From positions 82,089 to 146,088 of the IMG/VR virus record IMGVR_UViG_3300045988_119573: DNA of 64,000 nt. One strand, written 5' to 3'. Shown piece after piece: positions 35,725 through 38,567 of the stretch. Position 1 is the first letter of the stretch; each line of letters begins with the position of its first letter. The notes beneath the pieces are model-generated. The model did no database searches, was not told the origin of the DNA, and worked only from the letters and a program-made list of their open reading frames with translations. The DNA is from a virus. Both the position numbers and the translations under genes were made by a program.

Positions 35725-36678
35725 TCACACTCCTAACACATATTTCTCACTTCTAAATCCAGCTGCATTCGGATGACCGCCACCACCATATTTCACAGCA
35801 AGCTCATACACATTTACTTTATCCTGTTCTGCGGATCGCAACTGATATTCCCACATACTTCCATTGAACGAAAAACCAATGAACATATCATATTTAGAAG
35901 CATCAATAGATTCAAAGAAATCAGAATTGATTAATGCTCGGTTGATTGCATAGACTTTATGTCCCTCAAATATGGTTTCAAAACCATATGCTCTAAGATA
36001 TTGTTCTGCATTTGCTGCTAAATACTCAATAATTGATAAGCCATCTGCTATCATATCACCAATAATTTTTGCTGCTTCATAAATTCCTTGATCTTTATTT
36101 AACGTGTTTAGCAATGGACTTAACGCATCAAAATCATACGATTCAAATGCATAGTGAAATGCTTTTACGAATTGTTTTGACGTTTCACCAAAATAAAATG
36201 TATCCCACATGGCTGTATATTCTGCCAGTTTTGGATAATCTGCTTTATATTTATATATATTGAGTAATCTTTTTACATTTTTCTCATCCGTCCTCTCAAT
36301 TTGCTCCCAATTTTCATCACACATATATTTAAAATATAACCATGTCAAATTCGCTCCTGAAATACCCGCTCCAGTAATTCTGATTCCTTTTACATCACAC
36401 TTGAAATCTTTATACGCTTCAATCGTAGACTGATGATGGTCGATCCAAAATACATTCTTTGTAATACTGAGCAACTGCCACATCTCTTCTGGCTCAATAC
36501 TGTAGTCTACAATAAACACAAATTCATCCTGCTCAATGTCATGAAACGGGAATTTCATACCGTAATTAATTTTTCGGAAGTCCTCTGGTTCAAATGCTAA
36601 ACCTCGCTGTTCACAAGCTTTTCTGACGTAGAATCCAGACACGATTCCGTCTTGATCAACATGATAAAAACACTTCAT
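35725..36678 (-). CDS. DHH/DHHA1 phosphoesterase (NrnA-like nanoRNase / pAp or cyclic-nucleotide phosphodiesterase family)
   Basis: HVDQDGIVSG (motif I/II), FVFIVDYS, WIDHHQ (DHH), C-terminal GGGGHPNAAGF (DHHA1 GGGH..AAG). Confidence 0.7.
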   Translation of the reverse strand: MKCFYHVDQDGIVSGFYVRKACEQRGLAFEPEDFRKINYGMKFPFHDIEQDEFVFIVDYSIEPEEMWQLLSITKNVFWIDHHQSTIEAYKDFKCDVKGIRITGAGISGANLTWLYFKYMCDENWEQIERTDEKNVKRLLNIYKYKADYPKLAEYTAMWDTFYFGETSKQFVKAFHYAFESYDFDALSPLLNTLNKDQGIYEAAKIIGDMIADGLSIIEYLAANAEQYLRAYGFETIFEGHKVYAINRALINSDFFESIDASKYDMFIGFSFNGSMWEYQLRSAEQDKVNVYELAVKYGGGGHPNAAGFRSEKYVLGV

Positions 36679-36962
36679 TATTTTTCCTCCTTTATCTGCT
36701 CACCTTTATTAATTGACTCAACATATATTTCCCAGTCATCTGCATATACATCTTCCGCAAGAGGTATCCAAACTTCTGCGTTTTCTTTGTCAAATAAAAA
36801 AATAATTGAATCTGGCTTATATTCACCCATATCATTACACTCAAAATAAACATTAGTTAATTCTGACGAATAAATTTTCAAATACTTTTCCTTTCCCCAA
36901 ATGCCTCTTCTTATAGTAGTTTTGTCTTTTTTTATTGCAGTCATTGCTTTTATAAAATTCAA
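36678..36962 (-). CDS. Hypothetical protein
   Basis: 94-aa ORF. Confidence 0.4.
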   Translation of the reverse strand: MNFIKAMTAIKKDKTTIRRGIWGKEKYLKIYSSELTNVYFECNDMGEYKPDSIIFLFDKENAEVWIPLAEDVYADDWEIYVESINKGEQIKEEK

Positions 36963-36970
36963 TTAATTAC

Positions 36971-37282
36971 TCACCTCTTCCTTTTACTGTTAAAATCCCA
37001 TCCTTGCTCAACCCAATCATTTGCGAAAATATCCTCTTGTGTAGGCAACCATCCCAATGTTATAACTCCATTTTGGTCTCTACATAAGAGTGGTTTCATT
37101 TTATATTTTTTATCAAATGGAATAATCTCATTTAATTCTTCTTCGCACATCATAAACACATAATCATAAGTTGTTCGTGTCTTCTTCCACGAACTACGAC
37201 GATACAATTGTCTTGGATTAATTTCCATATTTTGCATCATCATTTCAAACGACATTCCTTGTTTCTTTTTTGCCATTGGCAT
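36971..37282 (-). CDS. Hypothetical protein
   Basis: 103-aa ORF. Confidence 0.4.
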   Translation of the reverse strand: MPMAKKKQGMSFEMMMQNMEINPRQLYRRSSWKKTRTTYDYVFMMCEEELNEIIPFDKKYKMKPLLCRDQNGVITLGWLPTQEDIFANDWVEQGWDFNSKRKR

Positions 37283-37587: not shown

Positions 37588-37754
37588 TATATCTCTCCTT
37601 TCTCAATTTCTTCTTTAATAATTCTATATGCAAGAGCCTCATCAGACTCTTTGTCATTAATTCCATTTCTTTCTAACAGCCTGTCCAATTCACTGGGACT
37701 CAGCCGATCAAAGAATCGTTTTATTTCCTGTTTACGTTGCCGTCTTGTTTTCAT
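37588..37754 (-). CDS. Small basic ORF (55 aa, MKTRRQRKQEIKRFFDRLSPSELDRLLERNG...)
   Basis: Not in the track (<60 aa). ATG 20 nt downstream of the last degenerate CRISPR repeat; stop overlaps the next gene's ATG, suggesting translational coupling. Confidence 0.3.
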
Positions 37755-37774: not shown

Positions 37775-37872
37775 GTTTTTGTTATTTTTTTTTATAATTG
37801 CCAAACACATTCGATAAATCAAGGGTAAATGTGTTGGTTTTGTACCTATGTTATTTTTTATAGTTGTCAAAC
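37775..37872 (-). CRISPR. Mini-CRISPR array 1: degenerate 32-nt repeat, 30-nt spacer, 36-nt repeat variant A'
   Basis: GTTTTTGTTATTTTTTTTTATAATTGCCAAAC | acattcgataaatcaagggtaaatgtgttg | GTTTTGTACCTATGTTATTTTTTATAGTTGTCAAAC. Strand not established; assigned here to match cas12f. Confidence 0.6.
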
Positions 37873-38013
37873 ATCAAATAACATAAATCCGACAATATAA
37901 CATAGATTTTAGTGAGTGCTATAGTAAGCCTCACTTTTGGCGTACTCAATATTATTTGAGCAGAATATTTTATATACTCCCAAAACACACCAAATATTTT
38001 AAAATTTTATTAA
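37873..38013 (-). ncRNA. tracrRNA-like module 1 (anti-repeat + conserved hairpin + CCCAAAACACACC motif)
   Basis: GACAATATAACATAG is complementary to repeat A' (CTATGTTAT...TTGTC); hairpin AGTGAG-N13-CTCACT followed by TTTTGG; motif CCCAAAACACACCAAATATTTTAA. Confidence 0.4.
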
Positions 38014-38183
38014 GTTTATGATGTAAAATTAATTAGGCATCAAACTACATTTTTGCATTTTTTCTTTAATTGCTTCTGCCGTTTTGTACCTATGTAAAAT
38101 TAATTAGGTATCAAACAAAGCATTAGCAGAAGAAAGAGGCTTGCACAGTTTTGTACCTATGTAAAATTAATTAGGTATCAAAC
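38014..38183 (-). CRISPR. Mini-CRISPR array 2: truncated repeat, 35-nt spacer, repeat A, 31-nt spacer, repeat A
   Basis: Two identical 36-nt repeats GTTTTGTACCTATGTAAAATTAATTAGGTATCAAAC (38081..38116, 38148..38183) plus a truncated copy ...ATGTAAAATTAATTAGGCATCAAAC; spacers tacatttttgcattttttctttaattgcttctgcc and aaagcattagcagaagaaagaggcttgcaca. Confidence 0.7.
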
Positions 38184-38318
38184 CTCAAATTCTTTTGTCC
38201 AATTTTGTTACCTAATTTACATAGATTTTAGTGAGTACCTTACGATCTCACTTTTGGCATAGCCACAACTCTGTGACCAGAAATTTTAATTGGAATAAAA
38301 TTTCCCAAAACATGCCAT
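38184..38318 (-). ncRNA. tracrRNA-like module 2
   Basis: TTACCTAATTTACATAG is complementary to repeat A (CTATGTAAA[ATTAA]TTAGGTAA: 16/17 pairing with a 5-nt bulge); hairpin AGTGAG-N11-CTCACT plus TTTTGG; degenerate CCCAAAACA motif. Confidence 0.45.
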
Positions 38319-38420
38319 GTATTTTATTTGTGTAATTTTTTATGGTTCTCAAACACCCATGCACTGGATCAGCGAGCCAAGATCGTTTTGTATTTGTGTA
38401 ATTTTTTATGGTTCTCAAAC
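38319..38420 (-). CRISPR. Mini-CRISPR array 3: repeat B', 30-nt spacer, repeat B
   Basis: GTATTTTATTTGTGTAATTTTTTATGGTTCTCAAAC | acccatgcactggatcagcgagccaagatc | GTTTTGTATTTGTGTAATTTTTTATGGTTCTCAAAC. Confidence 0.65.
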
Positions 38421-38567
38421 CTCAAATCTTAATTATGTATACAATACAAAACTTTACGTTCTGCTTCATTACACAAATTTTAGTGAGTGATTTCTCCTCA
38501 CTTTTGGCGTAACCATTTTATTTATGGCTGAGGGAGTACCGAACTCCCCCCAAAACACACCAAATAT
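38421..38567 (-). ncRNA. tracrRNA-like module 3 (its 3' part overlaps the cas12f stop codon)
   Basis: CATTACACAAAT is complementary to repeat B (ATTTGTGTAAT; 11-13 nt); hairpin AGTGAG-N9-CTCACT plus TTTTGG; extra GGGAG-TACCGAA-CTCCC hairpin; motif CCCCAAAACACACCAAATATTTAA ends at the cas12f TAA. Confidence 0.4.

What the first reader, a model, noticed from the sequence alone, without database searches (positions are those of the whole stretch)
37873..38567. Three repeat variants, each followed by a tracrRNA-like module whose anti-repeat co-varies with it
Repeat A is GTTTTGTACCTATGTAAAATTAATTAGGTATCAAAC, A' is ...CTATGTTATTTTTTATAGTTGTC..., and B is ...ATTTGTGTAATTTTTTATGGTTCTC.... Immediately beside each mini-array, just before a conserved hairpin, is a segment complementary to that array's own variant: module 1 GACAATATAACATAG pairs with A' CTATGTTAT/TTGTC; module 2 TTACCTAATTTACATAG pairs with A CTATGTAAA..TTAGGTAA; module 3 CATTACACAAAT pairs with B ATTTGTGTAAT. 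Compensatory change across three paralogous units is strong comparative evidence for a functional crRNA:tracrRNA-type duplex, expected for Cas12f, which requires a tracrRNA. Three tandem cognate tracr/array units, rather than one tracr and one array, is unusual and could allow independently regulated or orthogonal guide sets.
Basis: seen in the sequence. Interest (0 to 1): 0.85.

Follow-up and report, generated by a model that had tools for sequence, protein, structure and literature searches.

The report
Phage Cas12f with tandem guide cassettes
A phage carries a miniature CRISPR nuclease (Cas12f) followed by three head-to-tail cassettes, each pairing its own helper RNA (tracrRNA) with its own one- or two-spacer array through compensatory mutations. 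The layout recurs across a large family of phage Cas12f loci, and I found no published description of it.

Summary
On the minus strand, a 543-aa Cas12f gene (38568-40199) is followed by three units. Each unit holds a ~105-nt tracrRNA-like module, a short leader-like linker ending ATTTGAG/ATTTGAT, and a mini-array of 1-2 spacers.

Each anti-repeat pairs best with its own repeat variant: -11.8, -20.5 and -16.3 kcal/mol, against -4.4 to -10.3 for non-cognate pairs.

In 27 distinct units from related phages, three helices covary. They are an internal stem, the 11-bp anti-repeat:repeat duplex, and a pseudoknot between tracr nt 7-12 and the last 6 nt of the repeat. Overall 98.7% of cells pair, against 28-48% when the partners are slid, and 10 of 23 pairs show compensatory change. 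The order of elements matches the validated Al3Cas12f guide RNA.

Almost every relative examined has 2-4 such cassettes, and one distant locus has a single clear one. So one tracrRNA per mini-array is the prevailing design in this family.

One window spacer matches a plasmid-like element 31/31. A rival phage's spacer hits this clade's cas12f gene.

Orthogonality is not supported: non-cognate pairs still form 8-10 of 11 bp and share an identical pseudoknot.

I rate it a new variant of a known kind (type V-F) and moderately to highly interesting.

The parts
38568..40199 (-). cas12f effector gene (543 aa), with RuvC motifs VVGVDLG / YINIENL / NADYNAARN and a CxxC...CxxxxC zinc finger
   Evidence: Pfam Cas12f1-like_TNB 1.5e-17 and OrfB_IS605. 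NCBIfam guided_TnpB 4e-44 and Cas12f2 5.5e-31, below that model's cut-off. PDB CnCas12f1 8HR5 8e-59 and Al3Cas12f 9NZO/9NZR 9e-59. D315, E413, D495 and the four Cys are invariant in 5 homologues.
38458..38562 (-). tracrRNA module T3. P1 5' strand 38562-38557, pseudoknot strand GUUUUG 38556-38551, two hairpins, P1 3' strand, hairpin AGUGAG/CUCACU, and anti-repeat AUUUGUGUAAU 38478-38468.
   Evidence: CM R1 hit at 109 bits.
38421..38457 (-). Leader-like linker of unit 3, ending ATTTGAG (38427-38421) directly against the first repeat
   Evidence: The motif equals the type II-A group-1 leader end ATTTGAG/GTTT.
38319..38420 (-). Mini-array B: repeat 38385-38420, spacer 38355-38384 (30 nt), degenerate terminal repeat 38319-38354
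38204..38317 (-). tracrRNA module T2. Pseudoknot strand 38311-38306, proximal anti-repeat 38226-38216, and distal anti-repeat extending to 38204.
   Evidence: CM hit at 105 bits. Inverted repeats I13/I14.
38184..38203 (-). Leader-like linker of unit 2, ending ATTTGAG (38190-38184)
38021..38183 (-). Mini-array A: repeat 38148-38183, spacer A1 38117-38147 (31 nt), repeat 38081-38116, spacer A2 38046-38080 (35 nt), truncated terminal repeat 38021-38045
   Evidence: Spacer A1 has 31/31 protospacers in metagenome contigs L111-L114.
37887..37992 (-). tracrRNA module T1. Pseudoknot strand 37986-37981, proximal anti-repeat 37907-37897, and distal anti-repeat 37895-37887.
   Evidence: CM hit at 111.6 bits.
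37873..37886 (-). Leader-like linker of unit 1, ending ATTTGAT (37879-37873)
37775..37872 (-). Mini-array A': repeat 37837-37872, spacer 37807-37836 (30 nt), degenerate terminal repeat about 37775-37806. The next gene starts at 37754.

Best explanation
This is a phage-borne type V-F (Cas12f) CRISPR system whose guide RNAs are encoded as three self-contained tandem cassettes on the cas12f strand.

Each cassette reads 5'-tracrRNA - short leader-like linker - repeat - spacer (- repeat - spacer) - degenerate terminal repeat-3'.

Shown by covariation:
- The tracr folds into a closing stem (UGGYRY/RYRCCA) around two hairpins, then a conserved hairpin (AGUGAG/CUCACU), then AAAAU.
- Its 3' anti-repeat pairs with the middle of its own repeat.
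- Its nt 7-12 (GUUYYG) pair with the last six nt of the repeat (CRRAAC) next to the spacer. This is the pseudoknot typical of Cas12 tracrRNAs.

Inferred:
- The anti-repeat lies only 14-37 nt upstream of its first repeat. Each cassette can therefore fold in cis into a natural single-guide-like RNA, and it serves any second spacer in trans.
- The Cas12f dimer loads these RNAs and cuts PAM-flanked DNA of competing mobile elements during infection.
- Cassettes arise by duplication or exchange of whole units and then diverge. Selection for pairing within each unit produces the compensatory changes.
- The ATTTGAG|GTTT junction of each linker may let host type II-A adaptation proteins insert spacers, since the phage has no cas1 or cas2. 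This last point is the least certain.
For: Effector identity.

Strand:
- It is the same strand as cas12f and its neighbours.
- The degenerate repeats lie at the 3' end of each array on that strand.
- There are many G-U pairs (UG 19/27 at pair 23-51, UG 15/27 in P1). These would be C-A mismatches on the other strand.

Pairing:
- The cognate energy advantage, with shuffle controls.
- In 27 distinct units, 98.7% of cells pair against 28-48% when slid. 10 of 23 pairs have changes on both sides, and 0 of 500 shuffles reach the observed values.
- The tracr's internal fold has 13 of 25 pairs with compensatory change.
- Unconstrained MFE folds of each whole unit recover the hairpins and the cis anti-repeat:repeat duplex, z = -4.4 to -5.1.

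Homology of architecture:
- The validated Al3Cas12f sgRNA reads GGCGC-GUUGGA-GCGCC...CACUCAAAAAAU-UCACUUGA, with repeat UCAAGUGA-AUA-UCCAAC. That is the same order of elements, including the RUA junction.
- The pseudoknot with the repeat's 3' end is described as characteristic of Cas12 tracrRNAs.

Family-wide design:
- Every cas12f locus at 61-100% identity has 2-4 units.
- Loci at 49-54% identity have 1-3 units with their own repeat variants, often on both sides of the gene.

Genuine spacers:
- Spacer A1 matches 31/31 a SprT-like gene beside ParA, Arc and Rep genes in 4 contigs.
- A spacer of phage L005/L088 matches the cas12f of the window clade at 38981-39010, flanked by TTTG.
- Spacers differ between phages within the same cassette type.

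Neighbouring ORFs give no cas1/2/4 match.
Against: - There are no expression data. RNA ends, processing and the cis-versus-trans mode are all inferred.
- The simple scan found no minus-strand promoter or terminator in the region.
- Unit 3 has only 11 + 4 bp of anti-repeat pairing.
- Non-cognate tracr/repeat pairs in this window are only 1-3 pairs worse and share the pseudoknot. Selection for unit-specific pairing is therefore modest.
- Three of the four window spacers have no identified target.
- The two protospacer flanks, TTCGA/TTCAA and TTTG, give no single PAM. They come from Cas12f clades that are 62% identical.
- About two thirds of related phages have deleted cas12f and the first two cassettes, so the system is dispensable.
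- No bacterial genome with this tracr or repeat was found, which leaves the source of spacers open.
Confidence: 0.8

Rival explanations
1. Orthogonal guide sets. The three tracr/repeat pairs have diverged so that each tracrRNA serves only its own array, which would allow independent regulation or insulation.
For: Cognate duplexes are the most stable in every row and column. In more distant loci such as L089, the two units differ in both anti-repeat and pseudoknot.
Against: In this window the pseudoknot is identical in all three units. Non-cognate proximal helices keep 8-10 of 11 pairs, and T3 reaches 10/11 on both foreign repeats through G-U pairs. No separate promoters or terminators were predicted.
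Confidence: 0.2
2. Only one cassette is functional. The others are decaying duplicates with no current role.
For: Many relatives keep only T1 with one or no spacer after deleting cas12f. Terminal repeats are degenerate.
Against: All three modules score 105-112 bits against the family model, and all helices are intact. Changes are compensatory rather than random. The three-unit layout is kept in all seven window-clade loci at 91-100% Cas12f identity, with different spacers. The spacer with a perfect target lies in the middle unit.
Confidence: 0.1
3. The modules are structured CRISPR leaders, not tracrRNAs. A leader-repeat hairpin would control transcription or block production of an extraneous crRNA.
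For: The anti-repeat lies in cis 14-37 nt upstream of the first repeat. Each linker ends with a leader-type ATTTGAG motif. Leader-repeat hairpins are known in type VI systems (title listed).
Against: The module has the element order of a validated Cas12f tracrRNA. The pseudoknot helix to the repeat's 3' end covaries, which has no role in a leader hairpin. Cas12f enzymes of this clade need a tracrRNA.
Confidence: 0.05
4. The locus is read on the plus strand as a type II-like system, with spacer-repeat crRNAs and a tracrRNA that starts with the anti-repeat and is followed by hairpins.
For: On the plus strand the anti-repeat is followed by a hairpin plus TTTTGG, which looks like a terminator. The repeats look type II-A-like (36 nt, GTTT...AAAC; resemblance recalled from memory).
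Against: No Cas9 gene was seen among the ORFs examined around the locus, where all ORFs listed on this stretch are on the minus strand. G-U pairs in all three helices would become C-A mismatches on the plus strand. The degenerate repeats and the ATTTGAG leader end fit the minus strand. The element order matches Cas12f guides only on the minus strand.
Confidence: 0.03

Closest known systems
Type V-F1 CRISPR-Cas12f systems with tracrRNA (CnCas12f1 8HR5; Al3Cas12f 9NZO/9NZR; RhCas12f, OsCas12f, AsCas12f; PMC13186708)
   Same: The effector family is the same, with E about 1e-58 to solved structures. The guide architecture is also the same: P1 / 6-nt pseudoknot strand / hairpin / A-rich + U / anti-repeat. 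The repeat reads anti-repeat complement / RUA / pseudoknot complement / spacer.
   Different: The described systems have one tracrRNA per locus. Here there are 2-4 tracrRNAs, one per 1-2-spacer array, each co-varying with its own repeat variant. The locus is phage-borne, has no cas1/2/4 match among its neighbours, and carries two extra hairpins inside P1.
Viral CRISPR mini-arrays used in inter-virus competition (reviewed in PMC11656645)
   Same: The arrays sit in a virus genome and hold one or two spacers. The spacers hit other mobile elements: a plasmid-like element, and a rival phage's cas12f.
   Different: Classic mini-arrays carry host-type repeats and rely on host Cas proteins. This phage brings its own effector and its own tracrRNAs.
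TnpB omegaRNA and transposon-CRISPR intermediates, where the guide scaffold is fused to the guide (from my own knowledge of the TnpB literature)
   Same: The scaffold lies immediately upstream of the guide-bearing repeat on one transcript, with a pseudoknot to the segment next to the guide. The fused 'orphan' copies in relatives look like an omegaRNA.
   Different: No IS ends or TnpA were seen in the window. The modules start after the stop codon rather than overlapping the gene. Real repeat-spacer arrays are present, with variable spacers.
Natural single guides of Cas9: tracr-L, and phage-encoded vsgRNAs (bioRxiv 10.1101/2020.05.21.102756; 10.64898/2026.06.01.729453)
   Same: Nature fuses tracr and repeat into one compact RNA. 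Phages carry such RNAs away from any cas gene, as with the orphan modules seen in relatives.
   Different: Those belong to Cas9 (type II) and act by repression or sequestration. The vsgRNA preprint reports no Cas12 counterpart. The window's three units are not fused.
Type II-A group-1 leader-repeat junction ATTTGAG/GTTT (PMC5382924)
   Same: The same 7-nt motif abuts the first repeat of nearly every unit. Repeats are 36 nt and spacers mostly 30 nt.
   Different: The effector is Cas12f, not Cas9. No type II-A genes were found beside the locus. The functional link is inference only.

Membership tests
Type V-F (Cas12f) CRISPR-Cas | Small (about 400-700 aa) effector with a C-terminal split RuvC domain and a zinc-finger (TNB) insertion, homologous to Cas12f | tested here: met
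   543 aa. Pfam PF07282 and PF01385. Best PDB matches are Cas12f structures at E about 1e-58.
Type V-F (Cas12f) CRISPR-Cas | Intact RuvC catalytic D-E-D residues | tested here: met
   D315 (VVGVDLG), E413 (INIENL) and D495 (NADYNAARN) are present and invariant among 5 homologues at 61-100% identity. They were assigned by motif, not by structural superposition.
Type V-F (Cas12f) CRISPR-Cas | Adjacent CRISPR array with spacers derived from foreign DNA | tested here: met
   36-nt repeats and 29-35-nt spacers. Spacer A1 matches a plasmid-like element 31/31.
Type V-F (Cas12f) CRISPR-Cas | A tracrRNA with an anti-repeat, plus a pseudoknot to the repeat's 3' end | tested here: met
   Covariation of both helices. 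Same element order as the Al3Cas12f sgRNA. The pseudoknot is described as characteristic of Cas12 tracrRNAs. Expression was not tested.
Type V-F (Cas12f) CRISPR-Cas | Adaptation module (cas1, cas2, cas4) in the locus. It is present in canonical V-F1 loci and often absent on mobile elements. | tested here: not met
   The ten neighbouring ORFs give no Cas1/2/4 match.
Type V-F (Cas12f) CRISPR-Cas | Asymmetric homodimer on one guide RNA, and PAM-dependent dsDNA cleavage | not testable with these tools
   Only two protospacer flanks are available: TTCGA/TTCAA for the window clade and TTTG for a 62%-identical clade.
TnpB / omegaRNA of IS200/IS605 | Gene inside an IS with LE/RE ends, an omegaRNA overlapping the 3' end of tnpB, and a guide that is the fixed flanking sequence | tested here: not met
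   The modules begin 6 nt after the stop codon. Repeat-spacer arrays with variable spacers are present. The locus sits at a fixed syntenic site between the same phage genes in relatives.
Virus-borne orphan mini-arrays | Arrays of 1-2 spacers that depend on the host's Cas effector | tested here: not met
   The array size fits, but the phage encodes its own effector and tracrRNAs.
Type II (Cas9) tracrRNA:crRNA | A Cas9 gene, and a tracrRNA with a 5' anti-repeat pairing with the spacer-proximal 5' part of the repeat | tested here: not met
   No Cas9 was found among the ORFs examined. The G-U pattern and degenerate repeats fix the minus strand, where the spacer is 3' of the repeat.

The most novel reading that the evidence does not exclude
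The unit of inheritance in this phage Cas12f family may be a self-contained guide cassette (tracrRNA + mini-leader + repeat + spacer) rather than a CRISPR array. Cassettes would be duplicated, shuffled and exchanged between phages, and could be loaded with spacers by host type II-A adaptation proteins through their ATTTGAG|GTTT junction.

Fused derivatives also exist. In them the tracr is joined by a 7-13-nt loop to a 16-17-nt repeat remnant, giving a natural Cas12f single-guide scaffold. These have been inserted exactly in front of a phage tRNA-Ser gene and have spread to many phages that lack cas12f. There they could act as escape alleles or as RNA decoys against rival phages' Cas12f.
Probability: 0.3. 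Interest if true: 0.8.

Novelty: new variant of a known kind. Interest (0 to 1): 0.66.

Why it matters
The effector and the tracrRNA fold belong to a known family. In the literature I could search, Cas12f loci are described with one tracrRNA. I found no report of loci built from repeated tracrRNA-plus-mini-array cassettes whose anti-repeats co-evolve with their own repeats.

- **Natural mutagenesis data.** The family gives dozens of compensated variants of the repeat:anti-repeat duplex and of the pseudoknot. These show which positions of a Cas12f guide must pair and which may vary.
- **Natural scaffold variants.** It offers several distinct scaffolds for one compact nuclease, and natural loop-fused single guides. 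Both are of practical interest for multiplexed editing with miniature Cas12f enzymes.
- **Evolutionary link.** It connects split tracrRNA:crRNA guides with fused omegaRNA-like guides within one lineage.
- **Conflict between mobile elements.** One phage's guide targets a rival's cas12f gene, and another guide targets a plasmid-like element.

Tried and rejected
- **Rfam.** A search of the region found nothing meaningful, only a weak CRISPR-DR22 hit at E = 2.9.
- **Cultured phages.** Megablast of 6 kb against cultured phage genomes found no match.
- **Bacterial genomes.** Scans of 185,579 species representatives for the tracr core and for the A-type repeat pattern found nothing. No host or bacterial source was identified.
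- **Spacer searches.**
  - Exact 22-nt searches for spacers B and A1 in IMG/VR returned only the arrays themselves.
  - Spacer B gave no hit in metagenomes.
  - BLAST of all four window spacers against cultured phages gave only chance-level hits.
- **Protein-pattern search.** A search of IMG/VR with an alignment chose low-complexity patterns and returned only loci already known.
- **Promoters and terminators.** The simple scan found no minus-strand promoter or terminator. The idea of a TAAAAT box formed by each terminal repeat just before the next tracr therefore remains unsupported.
- **UUUUGG/CCAAAA stem.** I first read UUUUGG...CCAAAA as a long-range stem inside the tracr. Covariation instead supports UGGYRY/RYRCCA as that stem, and GUUYYG as the partner of the repeat's 3' end.
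- **Homing reading of the orphan module.** Under a TnpB-like homing model, the orphan's guide would cut empty tRNA-Ser sites. This is not supported as it stands, because the empty site is flanked by TTAT rather than by either observed protospacer flank.
- **17-nt match.** The unit-2 linker (38190-38206) exactly matches 40319-40335. I judged this borderline for chance, with about 0.07 such matches expected, and did not pursue it.

Full report
**What is there**

All ORFs listed around the finding lie on the minus strand. The 543-aa ORF at 38568-40199 is a Cas12f.
- Pfam: Cas12f1-like TNB domain (1.5e-17) and OrfB_IS605.
- NCBIfam: guided_TnpB (4e-44) and Cas12f2.
- Best solved relatives: CnCas12f1 (8HR5, 8e-59), Al3Cas12f (9NZO/9NZR, 9e-59), then RhCas12f, OsCas12f and AsCas12f.
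- The RuvC motifs (D315, E413, D495) and the zinc-finger cysteines are present and invariant in five homologues.

Reading the minus strand from the stop codon, the order is:
- T3 (38562-38458), a 37-nt linker, then array B (repeat, 30-nt spacer, degenerate repeat).
- T2 (38317-38204), a 20-nt linker, then array A (repeat, 31-nt spacer, repeat, 35-nt spacer, truncated repeat).
- T1 (37992-37887), a 14-nt linker, then array A' (repeat, 30-nt spacer, degenerate repeat).
- The next gene starts at 37754.

The window holds no other copy of the module core or of the repeat.

Yes. The three modules share an invariant core that ends in CTCACTAAAAT, and the variable anti-repeat follows it. RNAduplex gives the cognate combination the best energy in every row and column:
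- T3-B -11.8, T2-A -20.5 and T1-A' -16.3 kcal/mol.
- Non-cognate combinations range from -4.4 to -10.3.
- Shuffled anti-repeats reach the observed value in 19, 0 and 6 of 2000 trials.

In the 11-bp helix next to the conserved hairpin, the three units differ at four pair positions, each compensated.

**Comparative evidence**

The motif GCCAAAAGTGAG-N6-16-CTCACTAAAAT occurs in 76 IMG/VR loci, mostly on 140-170-kb phage contigs. These gave 94 modules, of which 46 are distinct.

I built a gap-free anchored alignment of 27 distinct units. It joins the P1 5' strand, the next 6 nt, the P1 3' strand, AAAAT plus 12 nt of anti-repeat, and the last 24 nt of the first repeat. I then counted pairs for a three-helix structure.
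- 98.7% of cells pair, against 28-48% when the 3' partners are slid by 1-3 columns.
- 10 of 23 pairs show changes on both sides.
- 0 of 500 shuffles reach any observed measure.

The three helices are:
- an internal closing stem, UGGYRY/RYRCCA;
- the 11-bp anti-repeat:repeat duplex;
- a helix between tracr nt 7-12 (GUUUUG, GUUUCG, GUUCUG or AUUCUG) and the last six nt of the repeat (CAAAAC, CGAAAC, CRGAAC or CAGAAU).

RNAalifold on the modules alone predicts the closing stem, two hairpins inside it and the conserved third hairpin. 13 of its 25 pairs are compensated. Unconstrained folds of each whole window unit recover these hairpins and the cis anti-repeat:repeat duplex, with z about -4.4 to -5.1.

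**Strand and family membership**

Four observations fix the minus strand:
- It is the strand of cas12f.
- The degenerate repeats lie at the 3' end of each array on that strand.
- Each linker ends in a leader-type motif on that strand.
- G-U pairs are frequent in all helices (for example UG in 19 of 27 units at one pair). On the other strand these would be C-A mismatches.

The experimentally validated sgRNA of Al3Cas12f reads GGCGC-GUUGGA-GCGCC ... CACUCAAAAAAU-UCACUUGA, joined to the repeat part UCAAGUGA-AUA-UCCAAC. The window's T3 reads UGGUGU-GUUUUG-[two hairpins]-ACGCCA-AAAGUGAGG...CACUCACUAAAAU-UUGUGUAAU, with repeat AUUACACAA-AUA-CAAAAC. The order of elements is identical, down to the RUA junction. 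A preprint on another phage Cas12 states that Cas12 tracrRNAs characteristically form a pseudoknot with the 3' end of the repeat. The modules are therefore Cas12f tracrRNAs by architecture as well as by covariation.

**One tracrRNA per mini-array is the prevailing design in this family**

A covariance model built from the modules finds the following:
- three units in all seven window-clade loci (91-100% Cas12f identity);
- three units in the 70% clade;
- two to four units in the 61-62% clade.

Cassette types recur in different combinations, and the spacers within a type differ between phages.

The protein family is large: 731 proteins at E <= 1e-20, many on 75-230-kb contigs. Six sampled loci at 49-54% identity also carry tracr-plus-mini-array units, often on both sides of cas12f, each with its own repeat variant, anti-repeat and pseudoknot sequence. 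L091 has only one clear unit, and no arrays were detected next to the two tracr hits in L108.

No bacterial genome among 185,579 species representatives has the tracr core or the repeat pattern.

**What the system does**

Window spacer A1 matches four metagenome contigs 31/31 and two more 28/31. The match lies inside a SprT-like gene next to ParA, an Arc-like repressor and a replication initiator, so the target is a plasmid- or phage-plasmid-like element. Its 5' flank is TTCGA or TTCAA.

A spacer in phage L005/L088, whose Cas12f is 62% identical, matches the cas12f gene of the window clade. The match is at window 38981-39010 with 2 mismatches, and has 1 mismatch in L024. It is always flanked by TTTG.

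These are genuine spacers aimed at competing mobile elements. The locus sits next to two Tad2-like anti-Thoeris genes and a DHH phosphoesterase. None of the ten neighbouring ORFs matches cas1/2/4.

**Why one tracr per array (inference)**

The anti-repeat lies 14-37 nt from its first repeat, so each cassette can fold co-transcriptionally into a single-guide-like RNA. Cassette number and order vary between close relatives, which suggests duplication and exchange of whole cassettes. Divergence under selection for pairing within each cassette would then give the compensatory pattern.

Strict orthogonality is not supported in this window. Non-cognate proximal helices keep 8-10 of 11 pairs and the pseudoknot is identical.

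**Literature**

Full-text searches for multiple or tandem tracrRNAs, phage-encoded Cas12f and natural single guides found no description of this arrangement. A review of CRISPR in mobile elements covers viral mini-arrays but not this layout.

**Verdict**

It is a new variant of a known kind, type V-F. What remains inferred is RNA ends and processing, cis versus trans action, the PAM, the source of spacers, and any functional insulation between cassettes.

Noticed in passing
L013 7337-7206 (minus strand), and the same element in about 33 IMG/VR loci (for example L001, L009-L011, L014, L019-L023). Not in the window.: These are 'orphan' fused modules. A tracr of this family is joined by a 13-nt loop to a 17-nt repeat remnant, a natural single-guide-like scaffold. 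Its last nucleotide abuts nt 1 of a phage tRNA-Ser(GCT) at the head of a 10-tRNA cluster. They occur in phages with and without cas12f. A second orphan with a 7-nt loop lies between tRNA-Leu and tRNA-Gln (L002, L015, L062). They may be Cas12f counterparts of the Cas9 viral sgRNAs. RNase P would leave a scaffold with no guide.
   Followed up: partly
L097 about 880-910, L104 and L105, compared with L013, L106 and L107: An empty site for the orphan exists. It reads ...GGTCTACAAAAAATTAT|GTACGGGTGGCAG (tRNA-Ser). The occupied site reads ...GGTCTACAAAATTA[about 150 nt]CAGAAT|GTACGGG. The right end of the insertion is exactly the repeat/guide junction. The left end lies in an AAAAAATTA microhomology with the middle of the repeat. 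This suggests insertion by spacer-protospacer recombination.
   Followed up: partly
L017 6587-6860, and also L004, L007, L012, L018, L025 and others: About two thirds of related phage contigs have a clean deletion running from codon 8 of cas12f (ATGGCTAAGAAACAAAATAAAAAT) to the 5' flank of T1. It removes the effector and the first two cassettes. What remains is T1 with either one spacer or only a truncated repeat.
   Followed up: yes
window 38981-39010 (inside cas12f). The spacer is at L005 1359-1388 = L088 4676-4705.: A spacer of a related phage, whose Cas12f is 62% identical, matches the cas12f gene of the window clade. There are 2 mismatches here and 1 in L024, and the 5' flank is always TTTG. 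One phage's CRISPR appears to target its rival's CRISPR nuclease gene.
   Followed up: yes
window 38117-38147 (spacer A1). Targets at L111-L114 (31/31) and L115-L116 (28/31).: The protospacer lies in a SprT-like ORF (phrog_6361) next to ParA, an Arc-like repressor, a PBECR nuclease and a replication initiator. The target is therefore a plasmid- or phage-plasmid-like element. The 5' flank is TTCGA or TTCAA.
   Followed up: yes
window 38427-38421, 38190-38184 and 37879-37873 (minus strand), and most units in relatives: Each linker ends ATTTGAG (ATTTGAT in unit 1) directly against GTTT of the first repeat. This is the leader-anchoring junction of group-1 type II-A CRISPR loci (PMC5382924). Repeats are 36 nt and spacers mostly 30 nt, which is also type II-A-like. 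Host type II-A adaptation proteins might load these phage arrays.
   Followed up: partly
window 38354-38317, and the equivalent junctions in L086, L088 and L057: The degenerate terminal repeat of each mini-array runs straight into the 5' end of the next tracr (...ACAAATAAAATACA|TGG...). Its mutated tail forms a TAAAAT-like box 3-4 nt before the tracr start. This could be a promoter for each cassette, but the simple promoter scan did not call it.
   Followed up: no
window 36678-36962 and 36971-37282 (minus), and 35725-36678 (minus): Two adjacent Tad2-like (Thoeris anti-defence) ORFs and a DHH/DHHA1 phosphoesterase lie just downstream of the CRISPR cassettes. The region looks like a counter-defence and competition island.
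   Followed up: partly
window 38190-38206 and 40319-40335: A 17-nt exact match (TTCTTTTGTCCAATTTT on the plus strand) links the unit-2 linker to the 61-aa ORF just upstream of cas12f. It is borderline for chance in this AT-rich sequence, and the linker sequence is conserved in T2-type units of relatives.
   Followed up: no
L117 (JABLTT010080353.1, 211-kb contig) 190-290: A metagenome contig of 211 kb carries the same A-type array with the identical A1 spacer. Close relatives of this phage therefore occur in at least one independent public assembly.
   Followed up: no
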